Of a stretch of DNA of 64,000 nt, positions 15,979-31,785 are shown in pieces. The DNA is taken from the IMG/VR virus record IMGVR_UViG_3300042257_000094, positions 1 through 64,000 of that record; one strand, 5' to 3'. Every line of letters starts with the position of its first letter. The stretch's first letter is position 1. This DNA comes from a virus (Duplodnaviria > Caudoviricetes). The notes beneath the pieces were generated by a model. The model did no database searches and was not told the origin of the DNA. It saw nothing but the letters and a program-made list of their open reading frames with translations. A program made the position numbers and the translations under genes.

Positions 15979-16301
15979 TAATATTCTCCTTTATTTTTTG
16001 TTACCCTACAACTAAAACCAAACTTTGTCAACAAATATTTTGCAATTCTTCTTAGATTCTTCGGAGTGTCTCTCTTTTCAAATCACAGTACAATCTACCT
16101 ATGTGATTAAATACTTAGCGTTAGTACCTCCTATTTTATCAATCAAATGTATAAGTTACTTCCAATATTTACGTTCCCGGCGAGTGCCCTCCCGGGTTAG
16201 CGACAATATTAATCATAATGTACCATGTACACTCTATCAACTCCGTAGGAAGAACCTATATTGAAAGTAAATTGAACGGTTATCTTAAATATAAAAACTT
16301 C

Positions 16302-16330
16302 TTGACAACTAATCGCCTTTTTGCTAGAAT
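16302..16330 (+). promoter_or_regulatory. sigma70-type promoter at the start of the plus-strand arm
   Basis: TTGACA-17bp-TAGAAT with extended TG; near-duplicate at 22799. Confidence 0.75.
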
Positions 16331-16363
16331 CTAATCATCTTGAAGCAAAAAGGAGAAACAAAA

Positions 16364-16549
16364 ATGTCCAAGAAGAATGAAGTTGTTGCTTATATGGAAG
16401 ATAATTATCTTGTTGTTGGTGATAATAAGTATGACCTTGATGGTTTTATCGACCTCCGAGGCACAGGTATTACAGAATTGCCCGATAACCTGACCGTCGG
16501 AAGTGGTCTCCATCCCCGAAACACGTGTGGAGTTCTTTGCCTAGCATGA
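16364..16549 (+). pseudogene. truncated copy of the LRR gene (N-terminus plus about 1.5 repeats)
   Basis: MSKKNEVVAYMEDNYLVVG..ITELPDNLTVG closely matches 22861 onward; ATGA overlap with the helicase. Confidence 0.8.
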
Positions 16550-18165
16550 AATACTTTTACTTCAATTTACCAAAAAACAAACCACTCCATGAAGAATTAA
16601 CCTCTCTTTATGGAGTGGTCTTTCTCGTCCAACTAGAGCAGTACGCCGCCCCGGTGTTTCAGTTTGATTTTGTTTTCAAGACAATTTCCAAGTATTATCC
16701 AATAAACGCGAAAGTTCTCCTCAACTCCGCCCGATATGGAGACGTTAGAGAACATTTTGCTTGGTTAAAGGATAATATAAAAAATGTAAACAAAACAATT
16801 CCAAACTCCCATTTTAATTTCAAATCAAAGTTGACTCCGCTCCCATATCAAGAAAGTGGAGTTGAAATGATTCTGGATAGATATGATAAAGGGTATAAAG
16901 GAGCATTGCAAGGGGACGTTCCGGGGCTAGGTAAAACATTTCAAGCTATCCTCCTATATAATGCTTTTGTTTCTTATAAAAAATATGAAAAATTCAACAA
17001 AGATTCAAAAGTTCTCATTGTTTGCCCTAATTCTGTAAAAGGAAACTGGAAAAAAGAATGGGAAAAATGTGTTTGTAATAAAACAGAGGCATATATTATA
17101 GATAGCAATACGCCAAAATCAGCATTTGATCATCATAACATATTTGTAATAAATAACGATATTCTTCATAAACACAGATTTGTTCTACGCAAACAACAGT
17201 TTAGCTATGTAATTATTGATGAAATCCATTATTTCTGTAACTCCACTAGCAAGAGAAGTAAAGTTTTAAGGGATATCTGCTCTACTTCTGAGTTTGTTCT
17301 AGGAATGTCAGGCACTCCTTTAAAGAATTACATTAGAGATATTAGGCATATTCTTCAATTAATTGATCCTGATTTCATATGGGGAAATAAAAGACTATTT
17401 GAGAAAAAATTTTGTGATCTTAAAAAAGGTAAATACGGAATGATAAATACCGGGGCAAGCAATCAGCGGCTTCTTTCTCGTATTTTAAAAATGCACTATT
17501 TGATAAGGAGAACAAAAGAGGATATTGAAAATCAGCTTCCAGAAAAAAGAAGGGAGTTTCTATCTTTGGATGTAAATGAGTCAATGTCTGGTTTTTCTTC
17601 AATCAGCAAAATGAGGAATGTTCTTAAAAAAGAAGGTTTCTCTGATTTTTCTAAAATGGATGAAATTCCTGCTAAATTGAAGAGAAATAAAACCATTCAA
17701 AGGGCCAGAATCGATATTGGTTTGATGAAAGTTCCTTTTGTTGTTGAGATGGTGAATAGAAAAATAGAAAAAAATGAATCAGTTATTCTATTTTGTTACC
17801 ATAAAGAAGTGTTTGATAAATATAAGGAAATATATAAAGATAAAGCACTCTATATTTCAGGGGGAACGAACAGTAAAGATAGAACAAAATATGTTGAACA
17901 ATTTCAATCAGATAAAAAGAAACTTATTGTTTTGTCACTAGATGCTTGCTCAGAAGGCTTGACTTTAACGAAATCTCCCTATATGGTACAATCTGAAATG
18001 GATTGGAAAGCGGTTGTGCATAATCAAGCTGAGGATAGGTTTCACAGAGTCGGGCAAGAAAAGGAATGTTTGGTTGTCTATCCTTACATTGAAGGGACTC
18101 TAGACGAATATATTATTGGTTTGGTTGGATATAAAAATAAAACAGCAAAACGAATTGTGGGGTGA
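16546..18165 (+). CDS. SNF2/SMARCAL1-like helicase
   Basis: GDVPGLGKT, IIDEIH, SGTP, QAEDRFHRVGQ. Confidence 0.9.
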   Translation: MKYFYFNLPKNKPLHEELTSLYGVVFLVQLEQYAAPVFQFDFVFKTISKYYPINAKVLLNSARYGDVREHFAWLKDNIKNVNKTIPNSHFNFKSKLTPLPYQESGVEMILDRYDKGYKGALQGDVPGLGKTFQAILLYNAFVSYKKYEKFNKDSKVLIVCPNSVKGNWKKEWEKCVCNKTEAYIIDSNTPKSAFDHHNIFVINNDILHKHRFVLRKQQFSYVIIDEIHYFCNSTSKRSKVLRDICSTSEFVLGMSGTPLKNYIRDIRHILQLIDPDFIWGNKRLFEKKFCDLKKGKYGMINTGASNQRLLSRILKMHYLIRRTKEDIENQLPEKRREFLSLDVNESMSGFSSISKMRNVLKKEGFSDFSKMDEIPAKLKRNKTIQRARIDIGLMKVPFVVEMVNRKIEKNESVILFCYHKEVFDKYKEIYKDKALYISGGTNSKDRTKYVEQFQSDKKKLIVLSLDACSEGLTLTKSPYMVQSEMDWKAVVHNQAEDRFHRVGQEKECLVVYPYIEGTLDEYIIGLVGYKNKTAKRIVG

Positions 18166-18168
18166 TAA

Positions 18169-18411
18169 ATGTTTAACTGGTTGTTCAAGAACACCTGGCT
18201 TAAAATTAAAAAAGTATATTTTATCGAACGCGAAATGTTTTATCCAAACCAGATAAAAGTTTCCTCTACATATATACGTAGTGATAATATGCTAGAGTAT
18301 AAAAACTTGTACTCCACAAAAACATTTGATAATTACCTCGATGCCGTTAGATATGGGAACAGGCTGGCCAAGAAATATAATATTTTTTTCCTTGATCAAA
18401 CGGTAGAATAG
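18169..18411 (+). CDS. hypothetical protein
   Basis: tightly packed ORF in operon. Confidence 0.6.
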   Translation: MFNWLFKNTWLKIKKVYFIEREMFYPNQIKVSSTYIRSDNMLEYKNLYSTKTFDNYLDAVRYGNRLAKKYNIFFLDQTVE

Positions 18412-18421
18412 GTAAAATAAT

Positions 18422-19324
18422 ATGCTCGACGTAAGGGCTTTTCTGACTAAATTTGATGTTCCTTTTGCTGAACCGGGAACAGAGAACGTAGGTAAAAACT
18501 ATCTAGGCTTGCCTGTCTGTCCCTCTTGTGGGAAAGGAGGCAATCATTATGGTGTTAATATATTTACCGGAGCATGTTCTTGTTGGGTATGTCAGCACAA
18601 AGGTTCTGTTTATGATTTTGTAAAGCATTTTACAGGGGCTTCGTCCAAAGAAATATATAAAAGATTTAAAGAATCTAAAACCACGTTTCCTGTTTATCAA
18701 AAAGAAGAGATACAAGGCTCCTTGAAATTTCCTCACGGAATGGTTGATAATTTACCAAACCCACACAAAGAATATCTCAGGAACAGGGGTTTCGACCCTG
18801 ATTTTCTTGAACTTCGGTTTGGTTTGAAAGCCTTTGGAATGTTAAATAAGTTGTGGCAATATAGAATAATTGTTCCCATTTATATGCAAAACAAGTGTGT
18901 TTCATATTTAGGCAGAGCTATTTTTGATCACATGCTTCCTAGATATAAGAACGCATTAACAGAACATTCAATCATTCCGGTTAAACAGTGCTTATATGGA
19001 TTGGATGAAGTAGGAAACCATGCAGTTCTTGTTGAGGGACTGATTGATAGATGGAGATTTGGAAGTGGTGCAATAGCTACAATGGGTGTAGAAGTTACAA
19101 ACAAACAAATTGCTTTTCTAAAAAAACAGGGGGTCAATAAAGTAACAGTTCTTTTTGATAATGATTTAGCTGGTAAAACACAGGCTGAGAATGTTGCTAA
19201 TAAGATTTCATTATTGGGTATTAGAACAAATATTTTTATGTGGCATAAAGAAGACGTTATGAAGGATGTTGGTGAATGTGGTTTGGAGAAGGTCGAAGAA
19301 ATACGAAAGGAGATATTTAAATGA
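18422..19324 (+). CDS. DNA primase (zinc finger plus TOPRIM)
   Basis: CPSC..CWVC, YLRNRG, VEGLID, FDNDLAG. Confidence 0.9.
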   Translation: MLDVRAFLTKFDVPFAEPGTENVGKNYLGLPVCPSCGKGGNHYGVNIFTGACSCWVCQHKGSVYDFVKHFTGASSKEIYKRFKESKTTFPVYQKEEIQGSLKFPHGMVDNLPNPHKEYLRNRGFDPDFLELRFGLKAFGMLNKLWQYRIIVPIYMQNKCVSYLGRAIFDHMLPRYKNALTEHSIIPVKQCLYGLDEVGNHAVLVEGLIDRWRFGSGAIATMGVEVTNKQIAFLKKQGVNKVTVLFDNDLAGKTQAENVANKISLLGIRTNIFMWHKEDVMKDVGECGLEKVEEIRKEIFK

Positions 19325-19722
19325 GTCTACTTAAAGATGCTGAAAAGAATGTATTGAAGACGGCAAAAGAACTGGAACTTGCTCAAAAATATATGACGGC
19401 ACTCGCCCATTTTGGAAATACTGTTTTTCGATACGAAGAAGAAAGAGATGAATTTTTTAAAGGACTAAAAATTTGTAGAAACGCAGTATATAGTAGGTAC
19501 TGTAACGCTATTCTTGATTGCTTTATGTTTTCTAGTATTGGGGGAGAAGAAATGAAGGAGTATCAAAAAGAAATTTTTGCTACTCAGTTTAAGGAAGATG
19601 ATATTAAATACTCTGTTATGCAGTTTCTTGAGGAATGGGGAAATCTTCCGAGAGGATGGAAAAAATCTGATGAAGAGAAATTCAGAAAAGAGGCGGCAGA
19701 GTTTATTGAAAAAAACTCTTGA
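19321..19722 (+). CDS. hypothetical protein
   Basis: ATGA overlap with primase. Confidence 0.7.
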   Translation: MSLLKDAEKNVLKTAKELELAQKYMTALAHFGNTVFRYEEERDEFFKGLKICRNAVYSRYCNAILDCFMFSSIGGEEMKEYQKEIFATQFKEDDIKYSVMQFLEEWGNLPRGWKKSDEEKFRKEAAEFIEKNS

Positions 19723-19778
19723 CAACCTCTCCGGTTTCTGCTAGTAAATATTCTAACAAAAACAAAGGAGAATTAGGT

Positions 19779-19952
19779 ATGCCAACAGAAACATTGAATG
19801 TTTTTCTTACTGATGAGGAAATTATGAGTATCATTAAATCTCATCTTGAAAAAGTTTATGGTCCAAAAGGATGGGAATTTTGGTGTCTAAGTAATGGCGA
19901 ACTCCCTAAAGAACTTGGTTTTGATTTTAGTCGGGCTAGTATTTACCGTTAA
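19779..19952 (+). CDS. small hypothetical protein
   Basis: own promoter (TTGACA at 19719) and AGGAG RBS. Confidence 0.55.
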   Translation: MPTETLNVFLTDEEIMSIIKSHLEKVYGPKGWEFWCLSNGELPKELGFDFSRASIYR

Positions 19953-20133
19953 AAAAAGAAAAATAATTACTTGACAATTCTCTCAATATTTGTTATATAA
20001 AGAATGAAAGCATTGCCGAGCGGTAATGATTTTATCGAGGTCCGGGCGAAACCCACGTAGTTAAATTCGCCCAAATTTTCTCTTGACTTTTAGTTTGATC
20101 TTTGTTATAAAAATATTTAGTGTTGATGAGAAA

Positions 20134-20227
20134 CCGCTAGGTGCGGCTGCTCGACGGAACATGATTGAGGTTCAAATCCTCTTTGCCACTGGATTCGTGG
20201 TGCGGGGCCGACTCCCGCCGCCGCTAG
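20134..20227 (+). ncRNA. tRNA-like RNA (degenerate tRNA-Leu(CAA) or tRNA mimic)
   Basis: GCGGC/GCCGC closing stem; hairpins GAGG-TTCAAAT-CCTC, GCCAC-TGGATTC-GTGGT, GCGGG-GCCGACT-CCCGC; promoter TTGACT-17-TATAAA at 20083. Confidence 0.5.
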
Positions 20228-20316
20228 AATAACAAATTTCTTGACATATTATTTGAAATAATATTACTTGACAAACTGTGTAAAAAGTGGTAGAATATCT
20301 CCGATATAATTAGTTA

Positions 20317-20409
20317 CCTACCGTAGTGTAATTGGAAGCACGACGAGTCTTATAAACTCGAACGCCAGATTAGCGGTTAGCCACAGTTCGATTCTGTGCG
20401 GTAGGACCA
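20317..20409 (+). tRNA. tRNA with TAT (Ile) anticodon and long variable arm
   Basis: CCTACCG/CGGTAGG-A-CCA acceptor, GTGT/GCAC D stem, CGAGT-CTTATAA-ACTCG anticodon arm, CACAG-TTCGATT-CTGTG T arm; promoter at 20268. Confidence 0.85.
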
Positions 20410-20795
20410 ATCAACTTAATTTATTAGAGGTTTTTATGAGAATAGAACTAGAATACTCATATAATAAGGATTGGAGAATTCTTTATTAAAGAAAATAGAA
20501 AGTTAACCCATGAACAAAAAAGAAAAATATTTAATAAATCCGTAATAAAAATCTATAGAGAATATAATAGATTTACTATTTAATAAACGATTTTTAATTT
20601 CAACCTTTAGTCAAAAAGAAAAGGACGAGAATAAATGAGCAATGTGTGCGGGGTTCAAGTCCTCAACGCGGCTCCACATTTTCAGCCGGATTGTACTACA
20701 AAGGCTTGATGGGTGTAATAAAGGGATAAGGACGTGGGCCTGATAGGGAGTCCTTAGATGTAGAATAGGCGGGGATTCTATATCATAAAATTTCA

Positions 20796-20871
20796 GCTGG
20801 GTTAGCTCAGTTCGTAGAGCGGGGGTTTTGTAAACCTCTTGCTGTGGGTTCAACTCCCTCATCTGGCCCCA
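20796..20871 (+). tRNA. tRNA-Thr(TGT)
   Basis: GCTGGGT/ATCTGGC acceptor, GCTC/GAGC D stem, GGGGT-TTTGTAA-ACCTC, TTCAACT T loop, CCA end. Confidence 0.85.
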
Positions 20872-20951
20872 TATTTAAAAAGCCTATCGAGGGTATGGCG
20901 AACATCCGGTGTAATAAAATAAAACGCAGGTAGTTTCGAGCTTCTACCACC

Positions 20952-20984
20952 AAAGCCTGAGATTTGTTTCTTAGGCTTTTCTTT
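20952..20984 (+). terminator. intrinsic terminator closing the tRNA cluster
   Basis: AAAGCCTGAGA..TCTTAGGCTTT followed by T-run. Confidence 0.7.
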
Positions 20985-21060
20985 TATCCAAATTTTATCT
21001 TGACAAGTTACTCTTTTTTAGTTATATAGGTGTCTCAGTAACTAAAACAAAGGAGCTTGC

Positions 21061-21639
21061 ATGAATATCTTCGTTCTTGATCGTGATCCGAACAAAGCGG
21101 CACAATATCACAATAACACGCATGTTAGAAAGATGCTACTTGAAGGCTACCAAATGCTTTCAACCGTGATTTGGATGAAAGACATGACGTTTGCTGAATC
21201 CGCTTACGCCAACGGAACTCTTTATTGGCCCTCTCATTATAATCACCGCTGCACTCGTTGGGTTGAAGCATCCTATGACAATTTCCGTTGGATGAATGAT
21301 TTGGTGCAAGCCCTTTCACGAGAGTTCACATTCAGGCATCCGGAAGACAAGGTGCATCAATCTTTCCTGCGTTGTTCCCCTACTGTGAATATGTGGGAAG
21401 AATCATGCATTGAAGATGACGGTATCTGTTGGGAGCAAGAGGGTTTGACTGATTTTGCTCTCGCTATGCCTCCGCGCTATTACAAACAAACCCCCGATCC
21501 TGTGGAAGCATACAGAACCTATTATCGTGAATGTAAGCGATTCACCAAAGCAGGATGGGATATGGCAAAATGGACCAAGAGGGGGGAGCCTTATTGGTGG
21601 AAAGAAAAGACCAGTCTTTATGTCAGGGAGGATTCCTAA
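21061..21639 (+). CDS. pyrimidine-dimer DNA glycosylase / endonuclease V-like protein
   Basis: MNIFVLD..AAQYH..HVRKMLLE..QMLST, HYNHRCTRW, DPVEAYRTYY, KWTKR. Confidence 0.75.
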   Translation: MNIFVLDRDPNKAAQYHNNTHVRKMLLEGYQMLSTVIWMKDMTFAESAYANGTLYWPSHYNHRCTRWVEASYDNFRWMNDLVQALSREFTFRHPEDKVHQSFLRCSPTVNMWEESCIEDDGICWEQEGLTDFALAMPPRYYKQTPDPVEAYRTYYRECKRFTKAGWDMAKWTKRGEPYWWKEKTSLYVREDS

Positions 21640-22428
21640 ATGCCAGAAAAAATATCTCTCAAGAAAAAAGATATTCTTCAAGCTGTCACGGATGCGGGAT
21701 TTATCAAGTGTGAAACCTGTGGAACGTGGTACTTTGAACATGAAGAACATACTTGTGTGTTCCGAAAATTCAAAAAGAAGAAAAAAAAGAAGAAGCCTAA
21801 CGGGCAAGAATTTGTTACGAATAAGGATTGTGTGCTTTTTAAATATCCTCTCAAGAAACTTGAAGATATTGAAAAGGTGAAACGGTTCATTCTTGTGTCA
21901 AAGAAAAGTCCTGTGAAAGAAAGAAATTATTGTTTCTTCATTTGGGGAATCAATTCAAACCTTCGGGGCACTGATTTGATCGACATAACAATGGATGATC
22001 TTGGTGTTTGTGGAAAAGGGAAGGGCATATATGTTCCTGACAACGACTACTTCACAATTCGTGAGAAGAAGACAGGCAAGCTCAGGCGGGTGTATGTCAA
22101 TAATGCCATGAAAGACGCTCTCAAGGCGTGGGTAAAGCAAAGGGGCACACATTCCGGCTATCTCTTCAGTCAGGTCAAAGGGGATAAGTCGGCGGCCGTG
22201 TCCTTGGAATACTTTCGCTTCTATCTCAGAGATGTTGGATTGCATTTGGGCGTCGGATTGGGGTTGAGGGTTATGCGAAAGACCTGGGCATATTGGGCAT
22301 GGAAAAAAGGAGGATTGCCAATTGAAGTTATTTCTGAAGCAATGAACCACAGTTCCCCGGCAGTGACAAGGAGATATTTGGGAATTGACACAGAAGAAGT
22401 GAAAGAAGCCTTTATGGTTGAAATTTAA
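21640..22428 (+). CDS. tyrosine recombinase/integrase family protein
   Basis: NLRGTDL (R), EKKTGK (K), RVMRKT (HxxR variant), NHSS (H), TRRYLGI (Y). Confidence 0.85.
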   Translation: MPEKISLKKKDILQAVTDAGFIKCETCGTWYFEHEEHTCVFRKFKKKKKKKKPNGQEFVTNKDCVLFKYPLKKLEDIEKVKRFILVSKKSPVKERNYCFFIWGINSNLRGTDLIDITMDDLGVCGKGKGIYVPDNDYFTIREKKTGKLRRVYVNNAMKDALKAWVKQRGTHSGYLFSQVKGDKSAAVSLEYFRFYLRDVGLHLGVGLGLRVMRKTWAYWAWKKGGLPIEVISEAMNHSSPAVTRRYLGIDTEEVKEAFMVEI

Positions 22429-22445
22429 ACAAAAGGATAAATAGG

Positions 22446-22787
22446 ATGAAAATTTATATACTTAAAGGTCTTCAGGGAGAATATTCTTGTCGTGTAGATT
22501 GGAATTGCTGTGCCTTCACAAACAGAGAGAAAGCAGAGAAGTTGAAAAAGGAACTCAATGCTCTTGAAGATTGGCGTTGGCAATTCAATCCAGAGTTCAA
22601 TAAACTACTAAATAAACTACTAAATAAAGTTCCTTATGATACGCTTCCCCCCAGACACCCACATAAAGAAATAAAACATATTCCTAAAGGTAAATATCAC
22701 CTATTTAAGTACTACTTGGATTGTATTCCTGACGAATATGATCGAGCGTATTTTGACGTAGAAGAAATCGAACTTAAAGAGGACTAA
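22446..22787 (+). CDS. hypothetical protein
   Basis: RBS and operon context. Confidence 0.6.
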   Translation: MKIYILKGLQGEYSCRVDWNCCAFTNREKAEKLKKELNALEDWRWQFNPEFNKLLNKLLNKVPYDTLPPRHPHKEIKHIPKGKYHLFKYYLDCIPDEYDRAYFDVEEIELKED

Positions 22788-22860
22788 TTAAAAACTTCTT
22801 GACAACTAATCATTTCTTTGCTAGAACCTAATCATCTTGAAACAAAAAGGAGAAACGAAA

Positions 22861-24504
22861 ATGTCCAAGAAGAATGAAATTGTTGCTTATGTAGAAGATA
22901 ATTACCTTGTTGTTGGGAATGTTAAGTATGATTTGGAAGGTGATCTTGACCTCAGTCATACAGACATCACGGCACTCCCCGACAATCTGATTGTAGGAGG
23001 CGATCTTGACCTCTATAACACGGATATCGCGGAATTGCCCGATAATCTTACTGTTGGGGGTGATCTTGACCTAAGACGTACGGGCATCGCGGAATTACCT
23101 GATAACCTGACTGTCGGAGGGTACCTCAACCTTCAGAACACCCGCATCACAGCGTTGCCCGATAATCTGACTTTTAGTGGTAGTATCAACCTCCGAAACA
23201 CAGGCATCACGGAACTGCCTGATAATCTGACTATCGGCGGTTCTCTTGACCTCTCCAACACCCACATTACGGCACTCCCCGACAATCTGACTGTGGGAGG
23301 TTTTCTTGACCTTGAAGGTACAGCAATCACGGCGTTGCCCGATAATCTGACCGTCGGAGGTTCTCTTGATCTCTCCAACACCCACATCACAGAATTGCCC
23401 GATAACCTGACCGTCGGATATTCTCTTGTCCTCTACAACACACCCATCACGGCACTGCCTGATAACCTGACTGTTGGGGGGTGGCTTGACCTCGTAGACA
23501 CAGATATCACGGAATTGCCTGATAACCTGACTGTGGGGGGTTATCTCTTCCTTGAAGGCACGGACATCACGGAGTTGCCCGATAATCTGACAGTGAGGGA
23601 GTCTCTCTTTCTCAGAAACACTAATATCACGGAACTTCCCGACAATCTGACTATCGGCGGTGATCTTGACCTCAGAAACACAGGCATCACGGAACTGCCT
23701 GATAATCTGACTATCGGCGGTTCTCTTGACCTCTCCAACACCCACATTACGGCACTCCCCGACAATTTGATTGTTGGCGGGGGGCTAGACCTCGTAGACA
23801 CAGATATCACGGAATTGCCTGATAACCTGACTGTGGGAGGTTTTCTTGACCTTGAAGGCACAGCAATCACGGCGTTGCCCGACAATTTGATTGTTGGCGG
23901 GGGGCTAGACCTCCGAGGCTCAGGCATCACGGAATTGCCCGGTAATCTGACTGTCGGAGGTTTTCTTGACCTCTCCAACACCCACATTACGGCACTCCCC
24001 GACAATTTGATTGTTGGCGGGGGGCTAGACCTCCGAAACACAAACATCACGGAAACCTCCCACGTCAACAGAAAAGTGCCTGACATGCTGACGTGGCAGG
24101 GGGGCAGGTATATTCTGGTAGATGGGATCTTTTCCGAAGTTGTCCACAAGCGAGACCATATCTGGAAAGTCAAGCAAATCGGAAAAACCGAAACATCTTA
24201 TGTGGTGACTGACGGCGAAGGCCGCTTCGCACACGGTTCGACCATCCGGGAAGCCCGTGAAGACTTGATCTACAAAATCTCAGACAGGGACAAAAGTGAT
24301 TACAGAGGTCTTGCTATTGACCACGAATTCACCTTTCAGCAAGCCATTGAAGCCTACCGCGTGATCACCGGGGCGTGTGCACTCGGAACCAAGCAATTCG
24401 TGGCTGAGCAAAGTGAAGTGAAGGAAACCTATACCATCAAAGAGATCATGGAGATTACTAAAGGTCAGTATGGACATAACAAATTTGTAAAATTCTTTGT
24501 GTGA
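22861..24504 (+). CDS. leucine-rich-repeat protein, 19 x 20-aa repeats plus a non-repeat C-terminal domain
   Basis: LTVGGxLxLxxTxITELPDN repeats; own promoter at 22799. Confidence 0.9.
   Translation: MSKKNEIVAYVEDNYLVVGNVKYDLEGDLDLSHTDITALPDNLIVGGDLDLYNTDIAELPDNLTVGGDLDLRRTGIAELPDNLTVGGYLNLQNTRITALPDNLTFSGSINLRNTGITELPDNLTIGGSLDLSNTHITALPDNLTVGGFLDLEGTAITALPDNLTVGGSLDLSNTHITELPDNLTVGYSLVLYNTPITALPDNLTVGGWLDLVDTDITELPDNLTVGGYLFLEGTDITELPDNLTVRESLFLRNTNITELPDNLTIGGDLDLRNTGITELPDNLTIGGSLDLSNTHITALPDNLIVGGGLDLVDTDITELPDNLTVGGFLDLEGTAITALPDNLIVGGGLDLRGSGITELPGNLTVGGFLDLSNTHITALPDNLIVGGGLDLRNTNITETSHVNRKVPDMLTWQGGRYILVDGIFSEVVHKRDHIWKVKQIGKTETSYVVTDGEGRFAHGSTIREAREDLIYKISDRDKSDYRGLAIDHEFTFQQAIEAYRVITGACALGTKQFVAEQSEVKETYTIKEIMEITKGQYGHNKFVKFFV
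22921..24060 (+). repeat. 19 tandem 60-bp coding repeats
   Basis: exact 60-nt period (GAYAAYYTGA..). Confidence 0.95.
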
Positions 24505-24629
24505 GGATACCTAATAAAAACTATATAAAAAGTATAAGGGGATGTAAAATACCTCTTTCTTTTATTTTTGCTTGACAAACAAGTTTTATTCTGATATAAT
24601 GTGTTCTACATAAAAGGAGAAATAGATAA

Positions 24630-24854
24630 ATGACTAACGAAAGTAATAAAAATATGTCAAATGTCATTTTTAAATTGAAGTGTTATCGTTGTGATTATGA
24701 ATGGATTCCTCGCAAAGAGGAATTACCTAAAACCTGCCCACGATGCAGGGCCATTACGTGGAATAAGAAAGAAAAAACTACCAAAGGCGGCTATCGGGAT
24801 GGGCGATCAGAAACAATCTGGAAAGAACGAATCAAGAATAAAAAAGGAGAATAA
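24630..24854 (+). CDS. small zinc-ribbon protein (paralog A)
   Basis: CYRCDYEWIPRK..CPRC..WNK. Confidence 0.75.
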   Translation: MTNESNKNMSNVIFKLKCYRCDYEWIPRKEELPKTCPRCRAITWNKKEKTTKGGYRDGRSETIWKERIKNKKGE

Positions 24855-24858
24855 TTAA

Positions 24859-25527
24859 ATGTCTGAAATTAAACTTATTAATGGAGATTGTTTGGAGAAA
24901 TTACGGGAACTTGATAGAGCATCTATTGATGCTATTATCACGGATCCTCCTTATAATATAGCAAGAGATAATAATTTTACAACAATGGGGAGAGCTGGTA
25001 TAGATTTTGGAGAATGGGACAAAAACGCAGATATATTTTCATATATAGGGGAGGTATCCCGAATATTAAAAAAAGGAGGGTCTTTCGTCGTATTCAATGC
25101 TTGGCGTAATCTAGGTAAAATTGCAGAATATGCAGAAGATACAGGTTTCGTTACAAAAGATATGATTAGACTAGAAAAAACAAACCCTATGCCGCGAAAC
25201 AGAGATCGTAGATATATTACAGATTATGAGTGCGCTATTTGGTTTGTAAAACCCGGAAAATGGACGTTTAATCGACAAGACGATAAATATGAGCGACCTA
25301 AATTTGCATGCGGAATAGAAAAAGGGTATCACCCTACTCAGAAAAATGTAAAGTTAATGGAGTGGTTAATTAAAATACATACTAATGAGAATGATGTTGT
25401 AGTAGACCCTTTTATGGGAAGTGGAACAACGGGAGTAGCATGTAAGAACCTCAATCGTAATTTCATTGGTATTGAAATGGATAAAAATTATTTTGAAGTT
25501 GCAAAGAAGAGAATAGGCAAGGCATAA
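24859..25527 (+). CDS. orphan DNA methyltransferase (beta class, DPPY; probably N6-adenine)
   Basis: TDPPY, HPTQK, DPFMGSGTT. Confidence 0.92.
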   Translation: MSEIKLINGDCLEKLRELDRASIDAIITDPPYNIARDNNFTTMGRAGIDFGEWDKNADIFSYIGEVSRILKKGGSFVVFNAWRNLGKIAEYAEDTGFVTKDMIRLEKTNPMPRNRDRRYITDYECAIWFVKPGKWTFNRQDDKYERPKFACGIEKGYHPTQKNVKLMEWLIKIHTNENDVVVDPFMGSGTTGVACKNLNRNFIGIEMDKNYFEVAKKRIGKA

Positions 25528-25592
25528 AACCTCTTGACAAACAAGTTTTATTCTGATATAATGTTTCTTACCTATAATAAAAGGAAATAGGA

Positions 25593-25799
25593 ATGGATAA
25601 AGATATACGAATTATTGAGAAATGCCGATGTCTTCGCTGTTCATATACTTGGTGGCCCAGAAAAGATAAATCCGAAATTAAACTCTGTCCTAGATGTAAA
25701 AGTCCAAACTGGAACAAAGAAAGAACAAATTTACGAGGATTAAAACAAGGAACTACAACCTCTATTCACGAAATAAGAGATAGAAACAAAAGGAAATAA
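25593..25799 (+). CDS. small zinc-ribbon protein (paralog B)
   Basis: CLRCSYTWWPRK..CPRCKSPNWNK. Confidence 0.75.
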   Translation: MDKDIRIIEKCRCLRCSYTWWPRKDKSEIKLCPRCKSPNWNKERTNLRGLKQGTTTSIHEIRDRNKRK

Positions 25800-25801
25800 A
25801 C

Positions 25802-27784
25802 ATGGTAAACAATAAACAAGAATATAATATTACTCCCACCTCCAATATAGATTACGTCCATGAGTATTTTATTAAGGTTGCTCCTTATATGGCAAGAACC
25901 TTTGAAAATAACAATACCGTGATGGTACTTGCATATATTCTATCTAAATGCTCTATGATTACTCACAAAGGACGCGATAGGCAGGGATGGGCATATGTTA
26001 CGTATGGGGACATTTATACAAATACCAGAACACCCAGAAGCACCGCCGCAAGGTGCATAACACAATTAGTGAATAGCGGAGTTCTAGAAAAAGATACAAG
26101 GAATAATGGGGATCGATCCATCTGCTACTATAAACCTAACCAGAAATTAATAGACTCCCTCCGAGATGAGGATATCCATGTTTGGAATTTACTGAGAAAT
26201 AAGAATATCCAACCTACAAAGAAGAATTTTGATAAATACGCAAAAATATCGGTTGAAATTCGTGAAAAGAGTAAAGGCACCTGTTCCATAGTGGAACACC
26301 CCTATTCCATAGTGGAACACCCCCCCGAAGAAGGCACCTGTTCCATAGTGGAACACCCCTGTTCCATAGTGGAACGACCCTATTCCATAGTGGAACGACC
26401 CTATTCCACTGTGGCACCCTTAATATATAACTTAATAAATAACTCTAAAAGATTACTTCTAATAGATAAAGCAACTATAAATAGTTGCACGACTTTGCCT
26501 ATCGCTACCGCTCAGGCAGAAGTCGAGCACGTTAGTCAGGTTGCAAGCGAATCAATCCAAGGGGAAGTTTCCTTGCTAAATTCTAATGAAGATAAATCTA
26601 ATGAGAATCCTAATGAGAGTTCTCTTGTTACTTCTAATAATAATTCTAATCCTAGTTCTCCTTGTTTAATTAATAATAAAGATTCTTCAGAGGTCTTTCC
26701 TTGTTACTTAGATAATAATTTAATTTCCGCGCCGCCAACCCCACAAAATTCCGACTCGGTGGCAAAGTGCGGTCCTGACGGCGGGGTGGACGTGTCTGTG
26801 GAGGGGGGTGAACTTGCCTCTGGGAGCTGTAGAATCGATTCTAACTCCAAATTCGACCTAGTACCCCACTCGGACACTAAAACGCAAAATCACCCCCAAA
26901 AAAACAATCATATATTAAACCCTCAAAATCTGTTCAAATCAGGTAAGGGGAGCAAGAAAGAAGAAACAATGGCCGAACTCACGAAGATGAGGGAAACAGA
27001 CCCCAAGTTCATGCGAATTTACGATACTTGGGTTGAGCAAGGGTTTCCTGCCCACAAACCAAACACGGCAGTCTTTCGAGAAGCCAAGAAAGTGATTCCT
27101 CAGATTCTTGATGGAACTTTTTTTGAGGACAAGGCAGATGTGGACGGGTATAGTCGTGTTTATTCGGTGAGAGAAATTATCAAGGCAATAAAAAACTTCA
27201 AACTCGCTTTTGACGTTAACTATGAACCTGCTAATAAGAATTGGTTGAAGAAGCGAAAGAATCTTGCCAAGTTCTTTTTTGATCCGATGTTGCATACAAA
27301 GAGTTTGTTCATTGAGTTTTTGGAAGAGCCAAAACTTATTGAACCTGCAACTAAATCACCTGAAGCAAAATATCTGGAGAAATATCGAAAGAAATATGTG
27401 TATATGCCTGATTGGTTCAAGCCTTTATATGATATTTATGCAGAAGATGGAAGAATGATTCCTGAAGAAGAGTTCACTGAAGAACAAAATAAATGGGGAA
27501 TTGCTTATTACTTCAACCATTTCATGCTTGATTTTGAGGAAGACGATGAAGGGTTGGCGTTTGGTGAATTGCCTTTTGGTTGGTCCGATATGGAGATTCT
27601 TGTTTCTCTGTGGCGAGAGCGGGATGGGGTTACAGATGAAGAATTTGAGTATGATCCGAATTTGATGGGAAGTTGGGAAGATGTTTTCTATGCCATTCAA
27701 AGCAAGGTGAATGAGATGGGCAGCAAGATGACTCGGAGCCATTTGTTCAGTGAAAAGGTCTGGAATATGGTGTATGAAGACTAA
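25802..27784 (+). CDS. putative replication initiator (N-terminal winged HTH, internal iterons)
   Basis: YVTYGDIY..PRSTAARCITQLVNSGVLEK HTH-like; internal 21-bp repeats and AT-rich tract as in lambda O-type genes. Confidence 0.65.
   Translation: MVNNKQEYNITPTSNIDYVHEYFIKVAPYMARTFENNNTVMVLAYILSKCSMITHKGRDRQGWAYVTYGDIYTNTRTPRSTAARCITQLVNSGVLEKDTRNNGDRSICYYKPNQKLIDSLRDEDIHVWNLLRNKNIQPTKKNFDKYAKISVEIREKSKGTCSIVEHPYSIVEHPPEEGTCSIVEHPCSIVERPYSIVERPYSTVAPLIYNLINNSKRLLLIDKATINSCTTLPIATAQAEVEHVSQVASESIQGEVSLLNSNEDKSNENPNESSLVTSNNNSNPSSPCLINNKDSSEVFPCYLDNNLISAPPTPQNSDSVAKCGPDGGVDVSVEGGELASGSCRIDSNSKFDLVPHSDTKTQNHPQKNNHILNPQNLFKSGKGSKKEETMAELTKMRETDPKFMRIYDTWVEQGFPAHKPNTAVFREAKKVIPQILDGTFFEDKADVDGYSRVYSVREIIKAIKNFKLAFDVNYEPANKNWLKKRKNLAKFFFDPMLHTKSLFIEFLEEPKLIEPATKSPEAKYLEKYRKKYVYMPDWFKPLYDIYAEDGRMIPEEEFTEEQNKWGIAYYFNHFMLDFEEDDEGLAFGELPFGWSDMEILVSLWRERDGVTDEEFEYDPNLMGSWEDVFYAIQSKVNEMGSKMTRSHLFSEKVWNMVYED
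26281..26419. repeat. six 21-bp iteron-like repeats with internal dyad; probable origin
   Basis: CTRTTCCATAGTGGAACRMCC at 26281, 26302, 26338, 26359, 26380 and a degenerate copy at 26401; AT-rich tract follows. Confidence 0.8.
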
Positions 27785-27863
27785 GAAAGTTATTGACAAA
27801 AGCAGATAAAATATGTAGAAGGGTAGCTAGTTTAAATTAAAAAACAAGGAAGGAGAAAAACAA

Positions 27864-28124
27864 ATGAAAAATTTTAGTGTAGAGGATATTCTTAAAGAAG
27901 TGTTTATTGGGAAGAGGATTAAAGAAACTGAATTTGTTCCTGATACTGAAAATGAGCGGGAGTATTACAAGGATAAGTATATGGATTTTCCTTCGTACGG
28001 CAAGAGGGTTATTGGTTGTCGTTTGAAATTTAATGGGGAAGATACTGTAGTTGTTTTGCTGTTTGAAGATTATACTATTTCTGAATTTTATACAAATGAC
28101 ACTTTTACTTTTATGGAGGACTAA
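27864..28124 (+). CDS. hypothetical protein
   Basis: promoter at 27793, AGGAG RBS. Confidence 0.65.
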   Translation: MKNFSVEDILKEVFIGKRIKETEFVPDTENEREYYKDKYMDFPSYGKRVIGCRLKFNGEDTVVVLLFEDYTISEFYTNDTFTFMED

Positions 28125-28125
28125 A

Positions 28126-28320
28126 ATGAGCAATAACAACACAAATTCTGGTGGTATTGGTATTTTCGGACTTCTTGGAGTTCTTTTTGTGGGACTCAAA
28201 CTTACAGGACATATTGATTGGTCTTGGTGGTGGGTAACTTTTCCGTTTTGGGGCGGATTTGCTCTTGTGGTAATGATTATTTTTATCACTGCTCTTATGT
28301 CTTATTTTGTAGAGAGGTAG
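28126..28320 (+). CDS. small membrane protein
   Basis: GGIGIFGLLGVLFVGLKLTGHIDWSWWWV, two TM segments. Confidence 0.7.
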   Translation: MSNNNTNSGGIGIFGLLGVLFVGLKLTGHIDWSWWWVTFPFWGGFALVVMIIFITALMSYFVER

Positions 28321-28325
28321 TTTCC

Positions 28326-28850
28326 ATGCGGCTTTTTTACAAAATTGAGAGAATGTTTGACTACATCCGGTATGATATTCCCTATGGACTTAGAAACCTT
28401 TGGAATTGGTTTCCTGTTATTTGGAATCATCGAAGTTGGGATGCTGTTTTTAGTCTCATGGTTCTTAAAAAGAGTCTCACAGAGGTTAGGGACGCCATAG
28501 AAAGAAACGCGCGACACTTGGGATATGAGAAAAATGTGAGGAGAATGACCGTAGCTATTGAATGTCTGAAAAGGATTCTTGAGGAGGGTGATTTTTCTTA
28601 TACAGATATGGCGTTTGATAAGCATGACGAGAAATGGGGAGAGCTTGAGTTTAGTTTTAAAGATGTTGAGGGGGCTAATGGAAATCTTAGTGAAACGATC
28701 TTTTCTAGAGACAACGTGAATACTAAGGAAGACGAAGAGCAAGAAGAAAAAGAATATAAGTGGTGTTCTGAGAGAGAAAAGAAACTCAGGCAACAAGATA
28801 TTGATATTTTTTTTGATACCATGAAACATTTTAGGAAGTGGTGGGATTGA
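28326..28850 (+). CDS. hypothetical protein
   Basis: GAGG RBS; operon context. Confidence 0.7.
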   Translation: MRLFYKIERMFDYIRYDIPYGLRNLWNWFPVIWNHRSWDAVFSLMVLKKSLTEVRDAIERNARHLGYEKNVRRMTVAIECLKRILEEGDFSYTDMAFDKHDEKWGELEFSFKDVEGANGNLSETIFSRDNVNTKEDEEQEEKEYKWCSEREKKLRQQDIDIFFDTMKHFRKWWD

Positions 28851-28859
28851 GTATAATAT

Positions 28860-29069
28860 ATGCTATACACTGAAGATAGATTTATATGTAATCAATGTGG
28901 ATCTTCTGAGTGGAATATGTTAATGTTACAGGATACCGTTTGGAAAATAATTAGTAAATATAAAAGAGAATTTTTATGTGTCCCTTGTATGGAAAAAAGA
29001 ATGGGAAGAAAATTTAAGGAGTCGGAAATTAAACCAAATTTACTTTGTAATGATCGGTGGTGGAATTGA
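28860..29069 (+). CDS. small zinc-finger protein
   Basis: CNQC..LCVPCMEKRMGR. Confidence 0.6.
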   Translation: MLYTEDRFICNQCGSSEWNMLMLQDTVWKIISKYKREFLCVPCMEKRMGRKFKESEIKPNLLCNDRWWN

Positions 29070-29097
29070 TTATGTTTAGGAAAGTTGGGAGTTAATT

Positions 29098-29883
29098 ATG
29101 AGTGAAATAAATCCAAAGGATGTATCGTGTAAAAAGTGTACTAAATGTGGAGAATTTAAGTCTTTGGATGAGTTCTATAAATCGCCTACAGGAAAATTTA
29201 AAAGGGTTAGTAGATGTAAGGAGTGTTTTAGGCTATATCAAAGGGAATACCAAGAAGAGCTTCGATTAAATAATGAAAAATATAAAGAATATAAAGAATA
29301 TCAAAAAGAATATAGGAAAAATAATTTAGACAGACTTAGGAAACAAAAAGCAGAATGCGCCCGTATATGGCAAAGAAAACCTGCTAAATATACTACATAT
29401 AAAGATAAATTGACTTCTTTAGAATCCCCTAGAAAAGGAGAGGGCGGTATATTAGAGGTCAGGTGTGCAACTTGCCGGGAGTATTTTATTCCTAGTAAAC
29501 AAAATGTACAGAATAGAATAGATTCATTATATAGCAGTAACAGACGAGGGGAGTGCCGTCTTTATTGTTCCGAAGAATGTAAAACCTCTTGCTCTGTATA
29601 TAATCAAAAGAAATATCCAAAAGACTTGACTAAACCTATTAAAAGAGAATATTCTAAAGAATTTCGTGAAATGATTCTTGAAAGAGATGAATATACTTGT
29701 CAAGTTTGTGGTGAGAGGTTTGATTCTAAAGAATTGCAAGCGCACCACATCAACCCTGTTATTTGTTCCCCAATGGAACAAGTAGATATTGAAAACGGAA
29801 TTTGTGTTTGTAAAGAGTGTCATAATAAACTGCATGATCAAGATGGCTGTCGTTATCATGAATTACGGGATACTAAAAAATAA
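29098..29883 (+). CDS. HNH endonuclease, one N-terminal zinc-finger module
   Basis: CTKCGEFK..CKEC; RDEYTCQVCG..AHHINP..NGICVCKECH. Confidence 0.88.
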   Translation: MSEINPKDVSCKKCTKCGEFKSLDEFYKSPTGKFKRVSRCKECFRLYQREYQEELRLNNEKYKEYKEYQKEYRKNNLDRLRKQKAECARIWQRKPAKYTTYKDKLTSLESPRKGEGGILEVRCATCREYFIPSKQNVQNRIDSLYSSNRRGECRLYCSEECKTSCSVYNQKKYPKDLTKPIKREYSKEFREMILERDEYTCQVCGERFDSKELQAHHINPVICSPMEQVDIENGICVCKECHNKLHDQDGCRYHELRDTKK

Positions 29884-30096
29884 ATAAACGATAACTATAT
29901 TAAATCTATTTAATCAGAAAATATTTTTAACACTCATTTTCTAAAAAGAAAATAAGAAAATGGAAAAAATTCTAGCTCGATTATTATTTTCCAACTCACG
30001 CCCAAGCATAAACAAAAATCAAAAAACATCTTGACTTTCATTTCAGTTTGGACTATAAAATATCTCAACAAATCGAAACAAAAAGGAGTTCACAAC

Positions 30097-30291
30097 ATGA
30101 CCAAGAATGAAGTTGTCAAGGTTTTCATGGAAAGAGATGGAATGTCTGAACTGGAAGCACAGGGACTCTTCAATGAGATCATGGATGATGTTCAGAGCAT
30201 GATGGATGAGTGGGATTTCATTGGAGCAGAAGAAGTTTTTATGAGTGAAACCGGACTTGAGCTAGATTATCTTTTGAATGTGTTGATGTAA
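30097..30291 (+). CDS. small acidic protein
   Basis: promoter TTGACT at 30031, AGGAG RBS, terminator downstream. Confidence 0.7.
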   Translation: MTKNEVVKVFMERDGMSELEAQGLFNEIMDDVQSMMDEWDFIGAEEVFMSETGLELDYLLNVLM

Positions 30292-31783: not shown

Positions 31784-31785
31784 AA

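What the first reader, a model, noticed from the sequence alone, without database searches (positions are those of the whole stretch)
22799..24504. Mosaic variable-LRR gene: 19 shuffled 60-bp modules varying on the predicted binding face
Seen: the repeats keep the scaffold L-T-V-G-G-x-L-x-L-x-x-T-x-I-T-[EA]-L-P-D-N, with most variation at the x positions (D/Y/S/F/W/G; D/N/V/F; YN/RR/QN/SN/EG/VD/RG). The DNA is a patchwork. 23195-23286 equals 23675-23766 (92 nt), and a 33-nt half-module recurs at 23761, 23881 and 24001 joined to different downstream halves. Established: these x positions line the concave ligand-binding face of LRR solenoids, as in lamprey VLRs and plant NLRs. Inference: a phage binder library diversified by inter-repeat recombination, possibly an adaptable anti-defence or host-interaction protein. 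It has its own promoter and lies outside the virion module.
Basis: partly seen in the sequence, partly recalled or inferred. Interest (0 to 1): 0.72.

Follow-up and report, generated by a model that had tools for sequence, protein, structure and literature searches.

The report
Phage LRR protein with recombining repeats
This phage gene encodes a leucine-rich-repeat binding protein whose repeat array has grown and been reshuffled by ordinary recombination, joined to a conserved, unstudied phage-only domain; what it binds is unknown.

Summary
The 92-nt identity and the three 33-nt copies are exact. Seven in-register exact matches of 30 nt or more occur against 0.08 expected.

The AlphaFold model (pLDDT 93.3) is an LRR solenoid (SHOC2, YopM). 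The closest solved relative is Vibrio FlrP (E 2.4e-28).

Close relatives carry 11 and 14 repeats in another order, so the array is not invariant. It sits on a promoter-bearing cassette; a deleted second copy lies at 16285-16549.

The C-terminal domain defines a phage family of about 1000 clusters, with no Pfam, PHROG or PDB match. It is fused to several repeat types, and one phage contig holds at least 21 paralogues.

I found no diversity machine: no reverse transcriptase, and no within-sample variants in contigs. Selection at the variable positions of this array is unresolved (pN/pS 0.88, saturated).

Most likely it is an intracellular early accessory binder. The target is unknown.

The scan noted analogous LRR repertoires in jumbo phages before, but not this family.

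The parts
22799..22827 (+). Sigma-70-like promoter: TTGACA (22799-22804), 17-nt spacer, TG-extended -10 TAGAAC (22822-22827)
   Evidence: Read. The strict scan does not list it, because its -10 hexamer ends in C. A near-identical promoter and leader, TTGACAACTAATC..TTTGCTAGAAT, lies at 16302. TTGACA-N16-18-TANNNT occurs 11 times in the window against 3.2 expected.
22847..22852 (+). Shine-Dalgarno AAGGAG, 8 nt before ATG 22861
   Evidence: Sequence. The leader is conserved in the second copy and in L001.
22861..24504 (+). Coding sequence of the 547-aa LRR plus C-domain protein (stop included)
   Evidence: One search found 608 homologues of 300-958 aa at E<=0.001.
22861..22935 (+). N-terminal cap, residues 1-25 (three short strands in the model)
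   Evidence: strands 9-12, 15-18, 21-24. It aligns with the N-terminal head of Vibrio FlrP. It has no hydrophobic signal-peptide-like stretch (sequence).
22936..24054 (+). 19 in-register 60-bp LRR modules (the 19th is partial); net charge of the array -49, pI 4.05
   Evidence: Solenoid model with pLDDT 93.3. Foldseek matches to SHOC2 (E 4.5e-10), Leptospira LRR proteins and YopM.
23656..24015 (+). Repeats 13-18: a recent mosaic block built from copies of repeats 5, 6, 7 and 10, organised as three 120-bp double units
   Evidence: all 7 exact tracts of 30 nt or more have one partner in repeats 13-18. Pairwise identities are 14/6 95%, 18/14 97%, 15/10 95%, 16/7 90%. The close relative P0001 lacks this block.
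24058..24501 (+). Conserved C-terminal alpha/beta domain (residues 400-547) of no known family
   Evidence: 1002 cluster representatives at E<=0.001; in the 150 listed the match ends within about 60 residues of the C-terminal end. No Pfam, PHROG or PADLOC hit. No PDB sequence hit. Model pLDDT 93.2. Foldseek PDB best E 0.14. VIA-align best Z 4.7.
16285..16549 (+). Internally deleted second copy of the cassette: same promoter, leader, N-cap and about 1.5 repeats, joined to the last codons of the gene at the SNF2 helicase start
   Evidence: tblastn: residues 1-54 at 68.5% identity, 16364-16525. Alignment. In relative L001 a full gene occupies this site.

Best explanation
The gene encodes a cytoplasmic accessory protein of a siphovirus-like phage of about 84 kb. 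It is probably made early or in the middle of infection.

The N-terminal cap and 19 LRRs form a long, very acidic solenoid. The residues at repeat positions 3, 5, 7, 8 and 10 form a ligand-binding face. The conserved C-terminal domain supplies a constant function that is not yet known: an effector, an adaptor or an anchor.

The array is an evolutionary product of in-register unequal homologous recombination and segmental duplication between 60-bp and 120-bp units. The phage's own RecA-like and SbcCD-like genes could drive this. The gene travels as a promoter-bearing cassette that is duplicated, moved and deleted among relatives.

Shown here:
- the fold;
- the repeat anatomy;
- the recombination tracts;
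- the differences between relatives;
- the cassette copies;
- the size and modular make-up of the family.

Inferred:
- that the protein binds a host macromolecule, or one from a competing element, during infection (host takeover or counter-defence);
- that the C-domain acts on or through that target.
For: - Fold: AlphaFold model pLDDT 93.3, pTM 0.83. Foldseek gives SHOC2 E 4.5e-10, Leptospira LRRs and YopM. By sequence, FlrP E 2.4e-28, and SspH1, YopM and IpaH at 1e-4 to 1e-5.
- Variable face: the same five positions vary within arrays in 121 family proteins with 937 repeats. They are rich in S, Y, D, N, W, R and G.
- Recombination.
- Relatives: P0001 has 11 repeats. Its repeats 1-5 and its last three are collinear with the window's, and the middle differs. 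L001 has 14 repeats. Relatives in two other metagenomes show in-register alternative junctions, with net skips of 120, 120, 480, 600 and 660 nt.
- Cassette: the promoter and leader are duplicated. The window holds a remnant copy, and L001 holds three copies.
- No signal peptide.
- Non-structural setting: 0 of 74 neighbouring ORFs from 15 loci hit a head, connector or tail PHROG. Eight hit DNA-metabolism families: SSB, RecT-like, exonucleases and helicases. The Edno5 LRR gene lies between cI and exo/recT, and the TJE1 member lies beside ERF and an exonuclease.
- Paralogue expansion: at least 21 distinct copies on one 120-kb phage contig, which also carries NAMPT, PRPP-synthetase and NAD-synthetase genes.
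- Recombination genes in the genome: RecA-like, Metallophos and SMC/AAA_23.
Against: - No partner, activity or expression datum exists. No RNA holder was listed.
- In this array pN/pS at the variable positions is 0.88 at pS of about 0.55, which does not separate relaxed constraint from diversifying selection.
- Near-identical repeat pairs in the window differ 4 times in variable codons and 15 times elsewhere, so there is no excess.
- The family-wide excess (pN/pS 6-9 at positions 3, 5 and 7 among recent pairs) is carried almost wholly by one array, L058: 118 of 136 pairs.
- The extreme acidity may point to nucleic-acid mimicry rather than specific protein recognition.
- The C-domain has no recognisable fold, so 'effector or adaptor' is a guess.
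- Neighbouring genes are not conserved.
Confidence: 0.55

Rival explanations
1. It is a virion-borne binder. The conserved C-domain docks the protein on or in the particle, and the variable solenoid recognises a host surface structure or is delivered into the cell. Jumbo phages may do this with modular LRR or beta-helix proteins.
For: The same C-domain is fused to several solenoid types, including 8-aa beta-helix-like repeats typical of fibres and adhesins. Goslar DUF7941 proteins combine a constant docking module with LRR or beta-helix domains (passages read). Earlier scan notes propose packaged LRR families in jumbo phages (unchecked). The closest solved relative, FlrP, is an extracytoplasmic structural binder.
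Against: The gene lies in the early and replication region behind the same promoter type as the helicase operon. None of 74 neighbours in 15 other loci is structural. Members occur in records named Myoviridae, Siphoviridae and Podoviridae, whose particles share no obvious docking site. The N-terminus folds as an LRR cap, not as a leader.
Confidence: 0.15
2. It is an enzyme effector aimed by its LRR, with IpaH/SspH logic. The C-domain is a catalytic module, for example a Cys/His enzyme using the nearly invariant His458 and Cys506, and the LRR selects the substrate.
For: Invariant or nearly invariant H, K, Y, R and C residues sit in the motifs AHG.T..EA..DL.YK and YR.ITGAC..GT..F across 69-71 sequences. 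The Cys lies just before a helix and the His lies in a strand in the model. The order of parts, LRR at the N-terminus and a constant domain at the C-terminus, is that of SspH1 and IpaH, which are also sequence hits for the LRR part.
Against: No similarity to any enzyme fold was found: Foldseek best E 0.14 and VIA best Z 4.7. I could not check whether His and Cys are close in space, because no coordinates were available. There is no NEL domain.
Confidence: 0.15
3. It is a programmed diversification system. The array would be rearranged at high frequency within a population, by the nearby tyrosine recombinase or another machine, to give a true binder library.
For: A tyrosine-recombinase-family gene lies two genes upstream, at 21640-22428. 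The array is a mosaic. A partial copy elsewhere in the genome could in principle act as a donor.
Against: The repeats are direct, so site-specific recombination would delete rather than shuffle them. The recombinase is absent beside the orthologue in L001. No reverse transcriptase appears among 59 ORFs scanned. Contigs of runs X1 and X3 match the array at 99% or more, with no alternative joints in X1. Overall pS of about 0.55 between repeats shows that most units are old.
Confidence: 0.05
4. It is a neutral repeat expansion in a protein whose function resides in the C-domain. The LRR would be only a spacer or solubility module, and the variable positions would simply be unconstrained surface.
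For: pN/pS of about 0.9 at the variable positions in this array. The recent duplicates re-use old residue sets. Forms with fewer than 45 residues before the C-domain are listed (21 of 148 representatives; many may be contig-end fragments).
Against: The same five positions vary in all arrays of the family, with a binder-like residue set. In three other arrays near-identical repeats differ preferentially at those codons: L058 238 against 0, L013 19 against 6, L054 10 against 3. Array lengths of 7-9 repeats are maintained across hundreds of family members.
Confidence: 0.1

Closest known systems
Vibrio alginolyticus FlrP (PDB 8Z5U/8Z5W/8Z60; bioRxiv 10.64898/2025.12.04.692373, abstract and section 10 read)
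   Same: Same N-terminal head and the same 20-residue G.L.L..T.I..LP..L.V repeat. phmmer E 2.4e-28 over query residues 9-188. Foldseek gives 34% identity and rmsd 1.7 A over 156 columns (rank 49). FlrP is a protein-binding beta-solenoid.
   Different: FlrP is a cellular, Sec-exported 21.5-kDa protein with about 8 repeats and a basic surface. It binds the flagellar rod and FliF loops and has no C-terminal domain. The window protein has no signal peptide, 19 repeats, net charge -49 and the phage C-domain.
Bacterial-type LRR effectors YopM and IpaH/SspH1 (LRR plus NEL E3 ligase)
   Same: Short, roughly 20-residue LRRs with an LP motif. They are sequence hits at E 4e-5 to 5e-4 and structure hits. 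SspH1 and IpaH have the same order of parts: an N-terminal LRR for the target and a constant C-terminal domain.
   Different: There is no NEL domain. The C-domain is 148 aa and alpha/beta, with no match to any solved chain. The gene is phage-encoded and the host is a bacterium. That these effectors travel by type III secretion is recalled, not tested here.
Flavobacterium psychrophilum tandem LRR protein locus (Altae-Tran et al. 2020, PMC10392669; passages read)
   Same: The number of internal LRRs varies (2-14). Hypervariable positions sit on one face of the solenoid. There are signatures of recombination, with strain-to-strain differences in number and sequence.
   Different: Those are bacterial cell-surface proteins with a secretion peptide and a T9SS signal, about 22-residue repeats, and illegitimate recombination with microhomologies. 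Here the protein is a cytoplasmic phage protein with in-register homologous tracts and a distinct constant domain.
Lamprey variable lymphocyte receptors
   Same: LRR scaffold with diversity concentrated at the x positions of the concave strand, and mosaic modules.
   Different: VLRs are assembled somatically from flanking cassette banks (recalled). Here I found no cassette bank, no sign of within-population assembly and no dedicated machinery.
Poxvirus ankyrin-repeat/PRANC (F-box-like) multigene family (recalled from memory, no call)
   Same: Analogy of logic only: a viral multigene family with a variable repeat array for target choice and a small conserved C-terminal domain for a constant host interaction, expanded in large genomes.
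   Different: Different repeats, different C-domain, eukaryotic hosts. No homology is claimed or tested.

Membership tests
Leucine-rich repeat (LRR) superfamily | Tandem 20-30-residue units with the LxxLxLxx(N/C)xL core | tested here: met
   19 units of 20 residues with L4, L6, T9 and I11. Thr stands at the Asn position; that this is tolerated in LRRs is recalled.
Leucine-rich repeat (LRR) superfamily | Curated profile match above the gathering score | tested here: not met
   The best Pfam match is LRR_14 at 36 bits against a cut-off of 40. LRR_4 reaches 12.5 against 27. Some relatives carry precomputed LRR_1, LRR_4 or LRR_14 hits.
Leucine-rich repeat (LRR) superfamily | Curved solenoid with one parallel beta-strand per repeat | tested here: met
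   AlphaFold model pLDDT 93.3. 85 PDB matches at E<=0.001; the listed ones are nearly all LRR proteins. Homology to the solved LRR protein FlrP at E 2.4e-28. This rests on a model, not an experiment.
IpaH/SspH NEL E3 ligases | C-terminal NEL domain with a catalytic Cys | tested here: not met
   No NEL hit in Pfam. The C-domain has no PDB sequence hit. Only the LRR part matches SspH1 and IpaH.
Diversity-generating retroelement target | A nearby reverse transcriptase and a template repeat with adenine-specific differences | tested here: not met
   No RT domain in the 42 + 17 larger ORFs of the 83.9-kb genome. No template-repeat search was run. ORFs under about 90 aa were not scanned.
VLR-like or shufflon-like programmed assembly | Donor cassettes plus a dedicated enzyme, and variant arrays within one population | tested here: inconclusive
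   There is only one 1.5-repeat remnant elsewhere in the genome. The recombinase neighbour is not conserved. Contigs of two runs show one form, but contigs drop rare variants and no raw or long reads were available.
Phage family defined by the 148-aa C-terminal domain (unnamed) | The C-terminal domain with the AHG.T..EA..DL.YK and YR.ITGAC..GT..F motifs at the protein's C-terminal end | tested here: met
   There are 1002 representatives at E<=0.001, 629 at 1e-10 and 101 at 1e-30.
T4-type packaged internal proteins (capsid-targeting leader) | A short N-terminal leader removed by the prohead protease | tested here: inconclusive
   The N-terminus is modelled as the LRR cap and aligns with the FlrP head. 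The phage has a gpE-type capsid protein. No cleavage-site test was possible.

The most novel reading that the evidence does not exclude
The C-terminal domain marks a large, undescribed class of phage adaptors built as 'constant domain plus interchangeable solenoid'.

In this reading the variable repeat face, LRR here and other solenoids elsewhere, selects a host defence or housekeeping macromolecule. The constant domain inactivates it or hands it to a universal host machine.

Large phages would keep arsenals of 10 to more than 20 paralogues, and smaller phages such as this one would retune a single long array by recombination. This would be a bacterial-virus counterpart of the repeat-plus-adaptor multigene families of large eukaryotic viruses.

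A sub-variant is that the strongly acidic solenoid (net charge -49) acts as a nucleic-acid mimic against DNA-binding defences. That would fit its position among DNA methyltransferase genes.
Probability: 0.25. Interest if true: 0.8.

Novelty: new variant of a known kind. Interest (0 to 1): 0.55.

Why it matters
Variable LRR proteins are the classic scaffold of host-pathogen recognition. Here one is fused to a conserved phage-only domain, and nothing is known about that domain.

The family has about 1000 clusters at 50% identity. It occurs in phage contigs and in MAGs labelled Bacteroidales, Clostridia-type Firmicutes and Desulfovibrio. One isolated actinobacterial phage (TJE1) carries a full member, and a gammaproteobacterial phage (Edno5) carries the same LRR type with a different C-terminus. 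The stretch or near relatives also turn up in wastewater, aquatic, oil-field, landfill and bioreactor metagenomes.

If these proteins bind host factors, they would be a large untapped set of natural intracellular binders and probably of counter-defence functions. The C-domain would be a new functional module.

The locus is also a clean natural example of how a phage remodels a binding surface with nothing but homologous recombination.

Tried and rejected
- Homodimer of the C-domain (complex prediction): no verdict (score 0.03, mark 0.42). This is no evidence either way.
- Function of the C-domain: no Pfam, PHROG or PADLOC hit. PDB by sequence gave only chance antibody hits at E 0.08 or worse. 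Foldseek PDB best E 0.14. VIA-align against 48,161 chains gave best Z 4.7 (pallilysin) and about 4 for profilin-like sheets over model residues 4-75, all below the tool's own noise level. BFVD returned only family members, whose names ('E3 ubiquitin ligase', 'SspH2', 'Lamprin') I take to reflect their LRR parts. The ESM Atlas gave only uncharacterised viral clusters.
- Conserved neighbour genes: single-linkage clustering suggested a 12-contig cluster, but its representative matched only 4 other ORFs, so I rejected it.
- Terminator after the gene: the fold of 24500-24575 is no better than shuffles (z 0.07).
- RNA evidence: no RNA holder was listed.
- Megablast of window 15000-35000 against the phage collection: no match.
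- Genome-contig scan with the window's own C-domain: no relative. A 9-sequence profile then found 16 loci.
- The X5 contig joining 22793 to 24571 (a cassette-less form) has only 30 nt on one side, and that target sequence occurs twice in the window. I treat it as a weak hint.
- Literature: four full-text searches found no description of this family.
- The long opposite-strand ORFs inside the array (216 and 210 aa) are by-products of the repeats.
Full report
**Setting.** The window is the first 64 kb of a single 83,914-bp virus contig. Its first 100 nt recur at 83,787, so the assembly closes on itself.

The genome encodes:
- family A DNA polymerase fused to UDG;
- an SNF2 helicase, a primase and a DnaB-like helicase;
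- two N6/N4 DNA methylases;
- a gpE-type major capsid protein, a tape measure and a gpJ-like tip protein;
- anaerobic ribonucleotide reductase with its activase;
- RecA-like and SbcCD-like proteins.

So it is a siphovirus-like phage of an anaerobe. The stretch, or near relatives of it, occurs in contigs of 20 public runs from 16 studies. Wastewater runs hold 0.85-0.93 of its words, aquatic runs 0.58, and oil-field, landfill and bioreactor runs less.

**The observation.** ORF 22837..24504 (+) most likely starts at ATG 22861, 8 nt after AAGGAG, giving 547 aa. Tandem Repeats Finder reports a 60-bp period with 18.6 copies and a stronger 120-bp period. From 22936 there are 19 in-register modules, GGxLxLxxTxIT[E/A]LPDNLTV. 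The last keeps 13 residues.

- 23195-23286 = 23675-23766 (92 nt);
- the 33-mer is identical at 23761, 23881 and 24001;
- 23724-23793 = 23964-24033 (70 nt).

Seven in-register exact tracts of 30 nt or more are present. In 1000 shuffles that keep each codon column, the mean was 0.08, at most 2, and the longest was 54 nt. All seven involve repeats 13-18. That block is therefore a recent mosaic of copies of repeats 5, 6, 7 and 10, arranged as three 120-bp double units.

Elsewhere the repeats are old. Pairwise DNA identity is 57-82%, and synonymous differences are about 0.55 per site.

**What it is.** Pfam gives only a sub-threshold LRR_14 match, 36 bits against 40. The AlphaFold model built on 71 sequences is confident (pLDDT 93.3, pTM 0.83). 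It is a regular solenoid followed by an alpha/beta domain. Foldseek finds 85 PDB matches at E<=0.001, led by SHOC2, Leptospira LRR proteins and YopM.

By sequence the closest solved chain is 8z5u_0, at E 2.4e-28 over residues 9-188 including the N-terminal head. [quoted passage not shown] SspH1, YopM and IpaH follow at 4e-5 to 5e-4.

The variable positions 3, 5, 7, 8 and 10 are the x positions of LxxLxLxxNxL, with L4, L6, T9 and I11 as the core. The model's strands fall at positions 19-20 and 4-5(-7). That these x positions face the concave side is established LRR knowledge.

The array is extremely acidic: 58 D+E against 9 K+R, pI 4.05. The median pI of arrays in the family is 4.41. There is no signal peptide.

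Residues 400-547 form a conserved domain.
- A search of 1.84 billion representatives finds 1002 proteins at E<=0.001, 629 at 1e-10 and 101 at 1e-30. In the 150 listed, the match ends within about 60 residues of the C-terminal end.
- It has no Pfam, PHROG, PADLOC or PDB-sequence match.
- Its own model is confident (pLDDT 93.2), but no solved fold matches: Foldseek best E 0.14, VIA-align best Z 4.7.
- Atlas and BFVD neighbours are uncharacterised viral proteins.
- Invariant or nearly invariant residues include H458, G459, A465, K472, Y499, R500, T503, G504 and C506.

By a crude motif sort of the 148 representatives newly fetched, the N-terminal partner is:
- this LRR type in 19;
- a related 20-aa 'SLTSIPEGFNPTVGG' type in 34;
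- an 8-aa beta-helix-like type in 11;
- an 'LTSVGG' type in 8;
- fewer than 45 residues in 21 (many may be contig-end fragments);
- unclassified in 55.

Conversely, this LRR type is joined to other domains:
- a different C-terminus in Edwardsiella phage Edno5;
- a roughly 520-aa N-terminal domain in L013 and P0065.

One search found 608 homologues of 300-958 aa, all unnamed or 'hypothetical'. Among the best 120 plus the window, the repeat count peaks at 7-8, and the window has the most, 18 full repeats plus one.

The closest relative, P0001, is 86% identical, 395 aa as called, and sits on an 83,995-bp contig. It has 11 repeats. Its repeats 1-5 and its last three are collinear with the window's 1-5 and 17-19. 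The middle differs: three repeats against eleven.

L001, a 70.7-kb viral contig with flanks 88-98% identical, has 14 repeats in yet another order. Contigs from an aquatic run and an oil-field run show in-register alternative junctions. The array is therefore not invariant among relatives.

Within samples the picture differs. Unitigs of two wastewater runs from different studies reproduce array pieces at 100%, and X1 shows no joints. One of these runs may be the source sample, and contigs hide rare variants.

**The cassette.** The promoter (TTGACA, 17 nt, TG-extended TAGAAC), the leader and the first codons recur at 16285-16549. There the gene is internally deleted: cap plus about 1.5 repeats, joined to its last codons at the SNF2 start.

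L001 carries a full copy at that site. It also has a shortened copy at the site syntenic with the window's gene; the same 22878 to 23920 junction appears in an oil-field contig. A third copy is cut by the contig end.

Copy number, position and length of the cassette all vary in this phage lineage. Many family loci end at contig ends, which suggests that assemblies often break inside such arrays.

**Selection.** Within the window's array, pN/pS is 1.42, 0.46, 1.30, 0.72 and 0.73 at positions 3, 5, 7, 8 and 10. Pooled it is 0.88, against 0.15 for the scaffold, at near-saturated pS.

Across 34 arrays with DNA, recently duplicated pairs give pN/pS of 8.6, 6.3 and 7.8 at positions 3, 5 and 7. This rests mainly on one array, L058. 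Its 18 repeats are identical except for single nucleotides in codons 3, 5 and 7: 238 differences there and 0 elsewhere.

L013 (19 against 6) and L054 (10 against 3) agree. The window (4 against 15) and L001 (0 against 8) do not.

So diversifying selection on the face is indicated for the family, but it is not shown for this gene.

**Context and function.** The gene is about 15 kb upstream of the virion module.
- In 15 other loci, 0 of 74 neighbouring ORFs hit a structural PHROG. I submitted 74 of the 100 selected, dropping 26: the 25 from L004, L011 and L012, which I judged redundant with L002 and L005, and L007:1-321.
- 22 of the 74 had hits: 8 in DNA metabolism, 1 methyltransferase, 2 host-takeover, 1 transposase, 1 endolysin, 2 lipoprotein, 1 Fe-S oxidoreductase and 6 of unknown function.
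- Edno5's LRR gene lies between cI and exo/recT. TJE1's member lies beside ERF and an exonuclease, and is mis-annotated there.
- Some large phage contigs hold many paralogues: at least 21, 12 and 10 distinct copies. The first also carries NAMPT, PRPP-synthetase and NAD-synthetase genes.
- No neighbour is conserved.
- No reverse transcriptase was found among the 59 larger ORFs scanned.

**Verdict.** This is a genuine LRR binder-type protein whose array has been expanded and re-sorted by recombination, on a mobile promoter cassette. It is not a library in any programmed sense, and neither its target nor its role is known.

Its main interest is the unstudied, widespread C-terminal domain and the modular, paralogue-rich family that the domain defines.

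The scan had noted analogous LRR repertoires in jumbo phages. Four literature searches found no description of it.

Noticed in passing
window 16285-16549: An internally deleted second copy of the LRR cassette. It has the same promoter, leader, cap and about 1.5 repeats, and is fused onto the start of the SNF2 helicase gene. Relative L001 has the full gene at this site.
   Followed up: yes
window 24572-24600 and 25534-25562: Two identical 29-nt consensus promoters (TTGACA-17-TATAAT with TG). Each precedes a small CxxC...CPRC zinc-ribbon ORF (24630-24854 and 25593-25799). These are followed by a DNA methylase and a replication-initiator-like gene respectively.
   Followed up: partly
window 25802-27784: A 660-aa replication-initiator/DnaD-like ORF with an internal run of short peptide repeats (SIVEHP/SIVERP). 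This also opens long ORFs on the opposite strand around 26189-26417.
   Followed up: no
window 21640-22428: A short (262-aa) tyrosine-recombinase-family gene two genes upstream of the LRR gene, with a run of ten lysines (an A-rich tract in the DNA). It is absent from the syntenic place in L001.
   Followed up: partly
L058:4804-6444 (4.1-Mb metagenome chromosome): A family member whose 18 repeats of 60 nt are identical except for one nucleotide each in codons 3 (TCT/TTT), 5 (GAC/TAC) and 7 (CGC/AGC). That is 238 pairwise differences in those codons and 0 elsewhere.
   Followed up: partly
L017, L020, L025, L028, L029 (one 120-kb contig); L016, L019 (one 84-kb contig): Large phage contigs with at least 21 and at least 12 distinct paralogues of the family. 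The copies are on one strand and interspersed with NAMPT, PRPP-synthetase and NAD-synthetase genes, transposases and, on a related contig (L022), a Cas3-like helicase.
   Followed up: partly
L024, L036, L037, L039, L040 (one 369-kb contig): tblastn matches about 2 kb long fall on 29 short ORFs of 60-234 aa. Either the genes are decayed or the element reads a stop codon as sense.
   Followed up: no
L063:2929-3666 (Tetrasphaera phage TJE1): A 245-aa family member (SLTSIPEGFNPTVGG repeats plus the C-domain). The record annotates it as a short orf51 and an opposite-strand orf50.
   Followed up: partly
window 1263-3890 (-): A family A DNA polymerase with an N-terminal uracil-DNA-glycosylase-superfamily domain in one 875-aa ORF.
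   Followed up: no
G000 64001-83914 (L064): The rest of the genome carries anaerobic ribonucleotide reductase NrdD with a radical-SAM activase, dUTPase, an SbcCD-like pair and a RecA-like recombinase. This points to an anaerobic host and to phage-encoded homologous recombination.
   Followed up: partly
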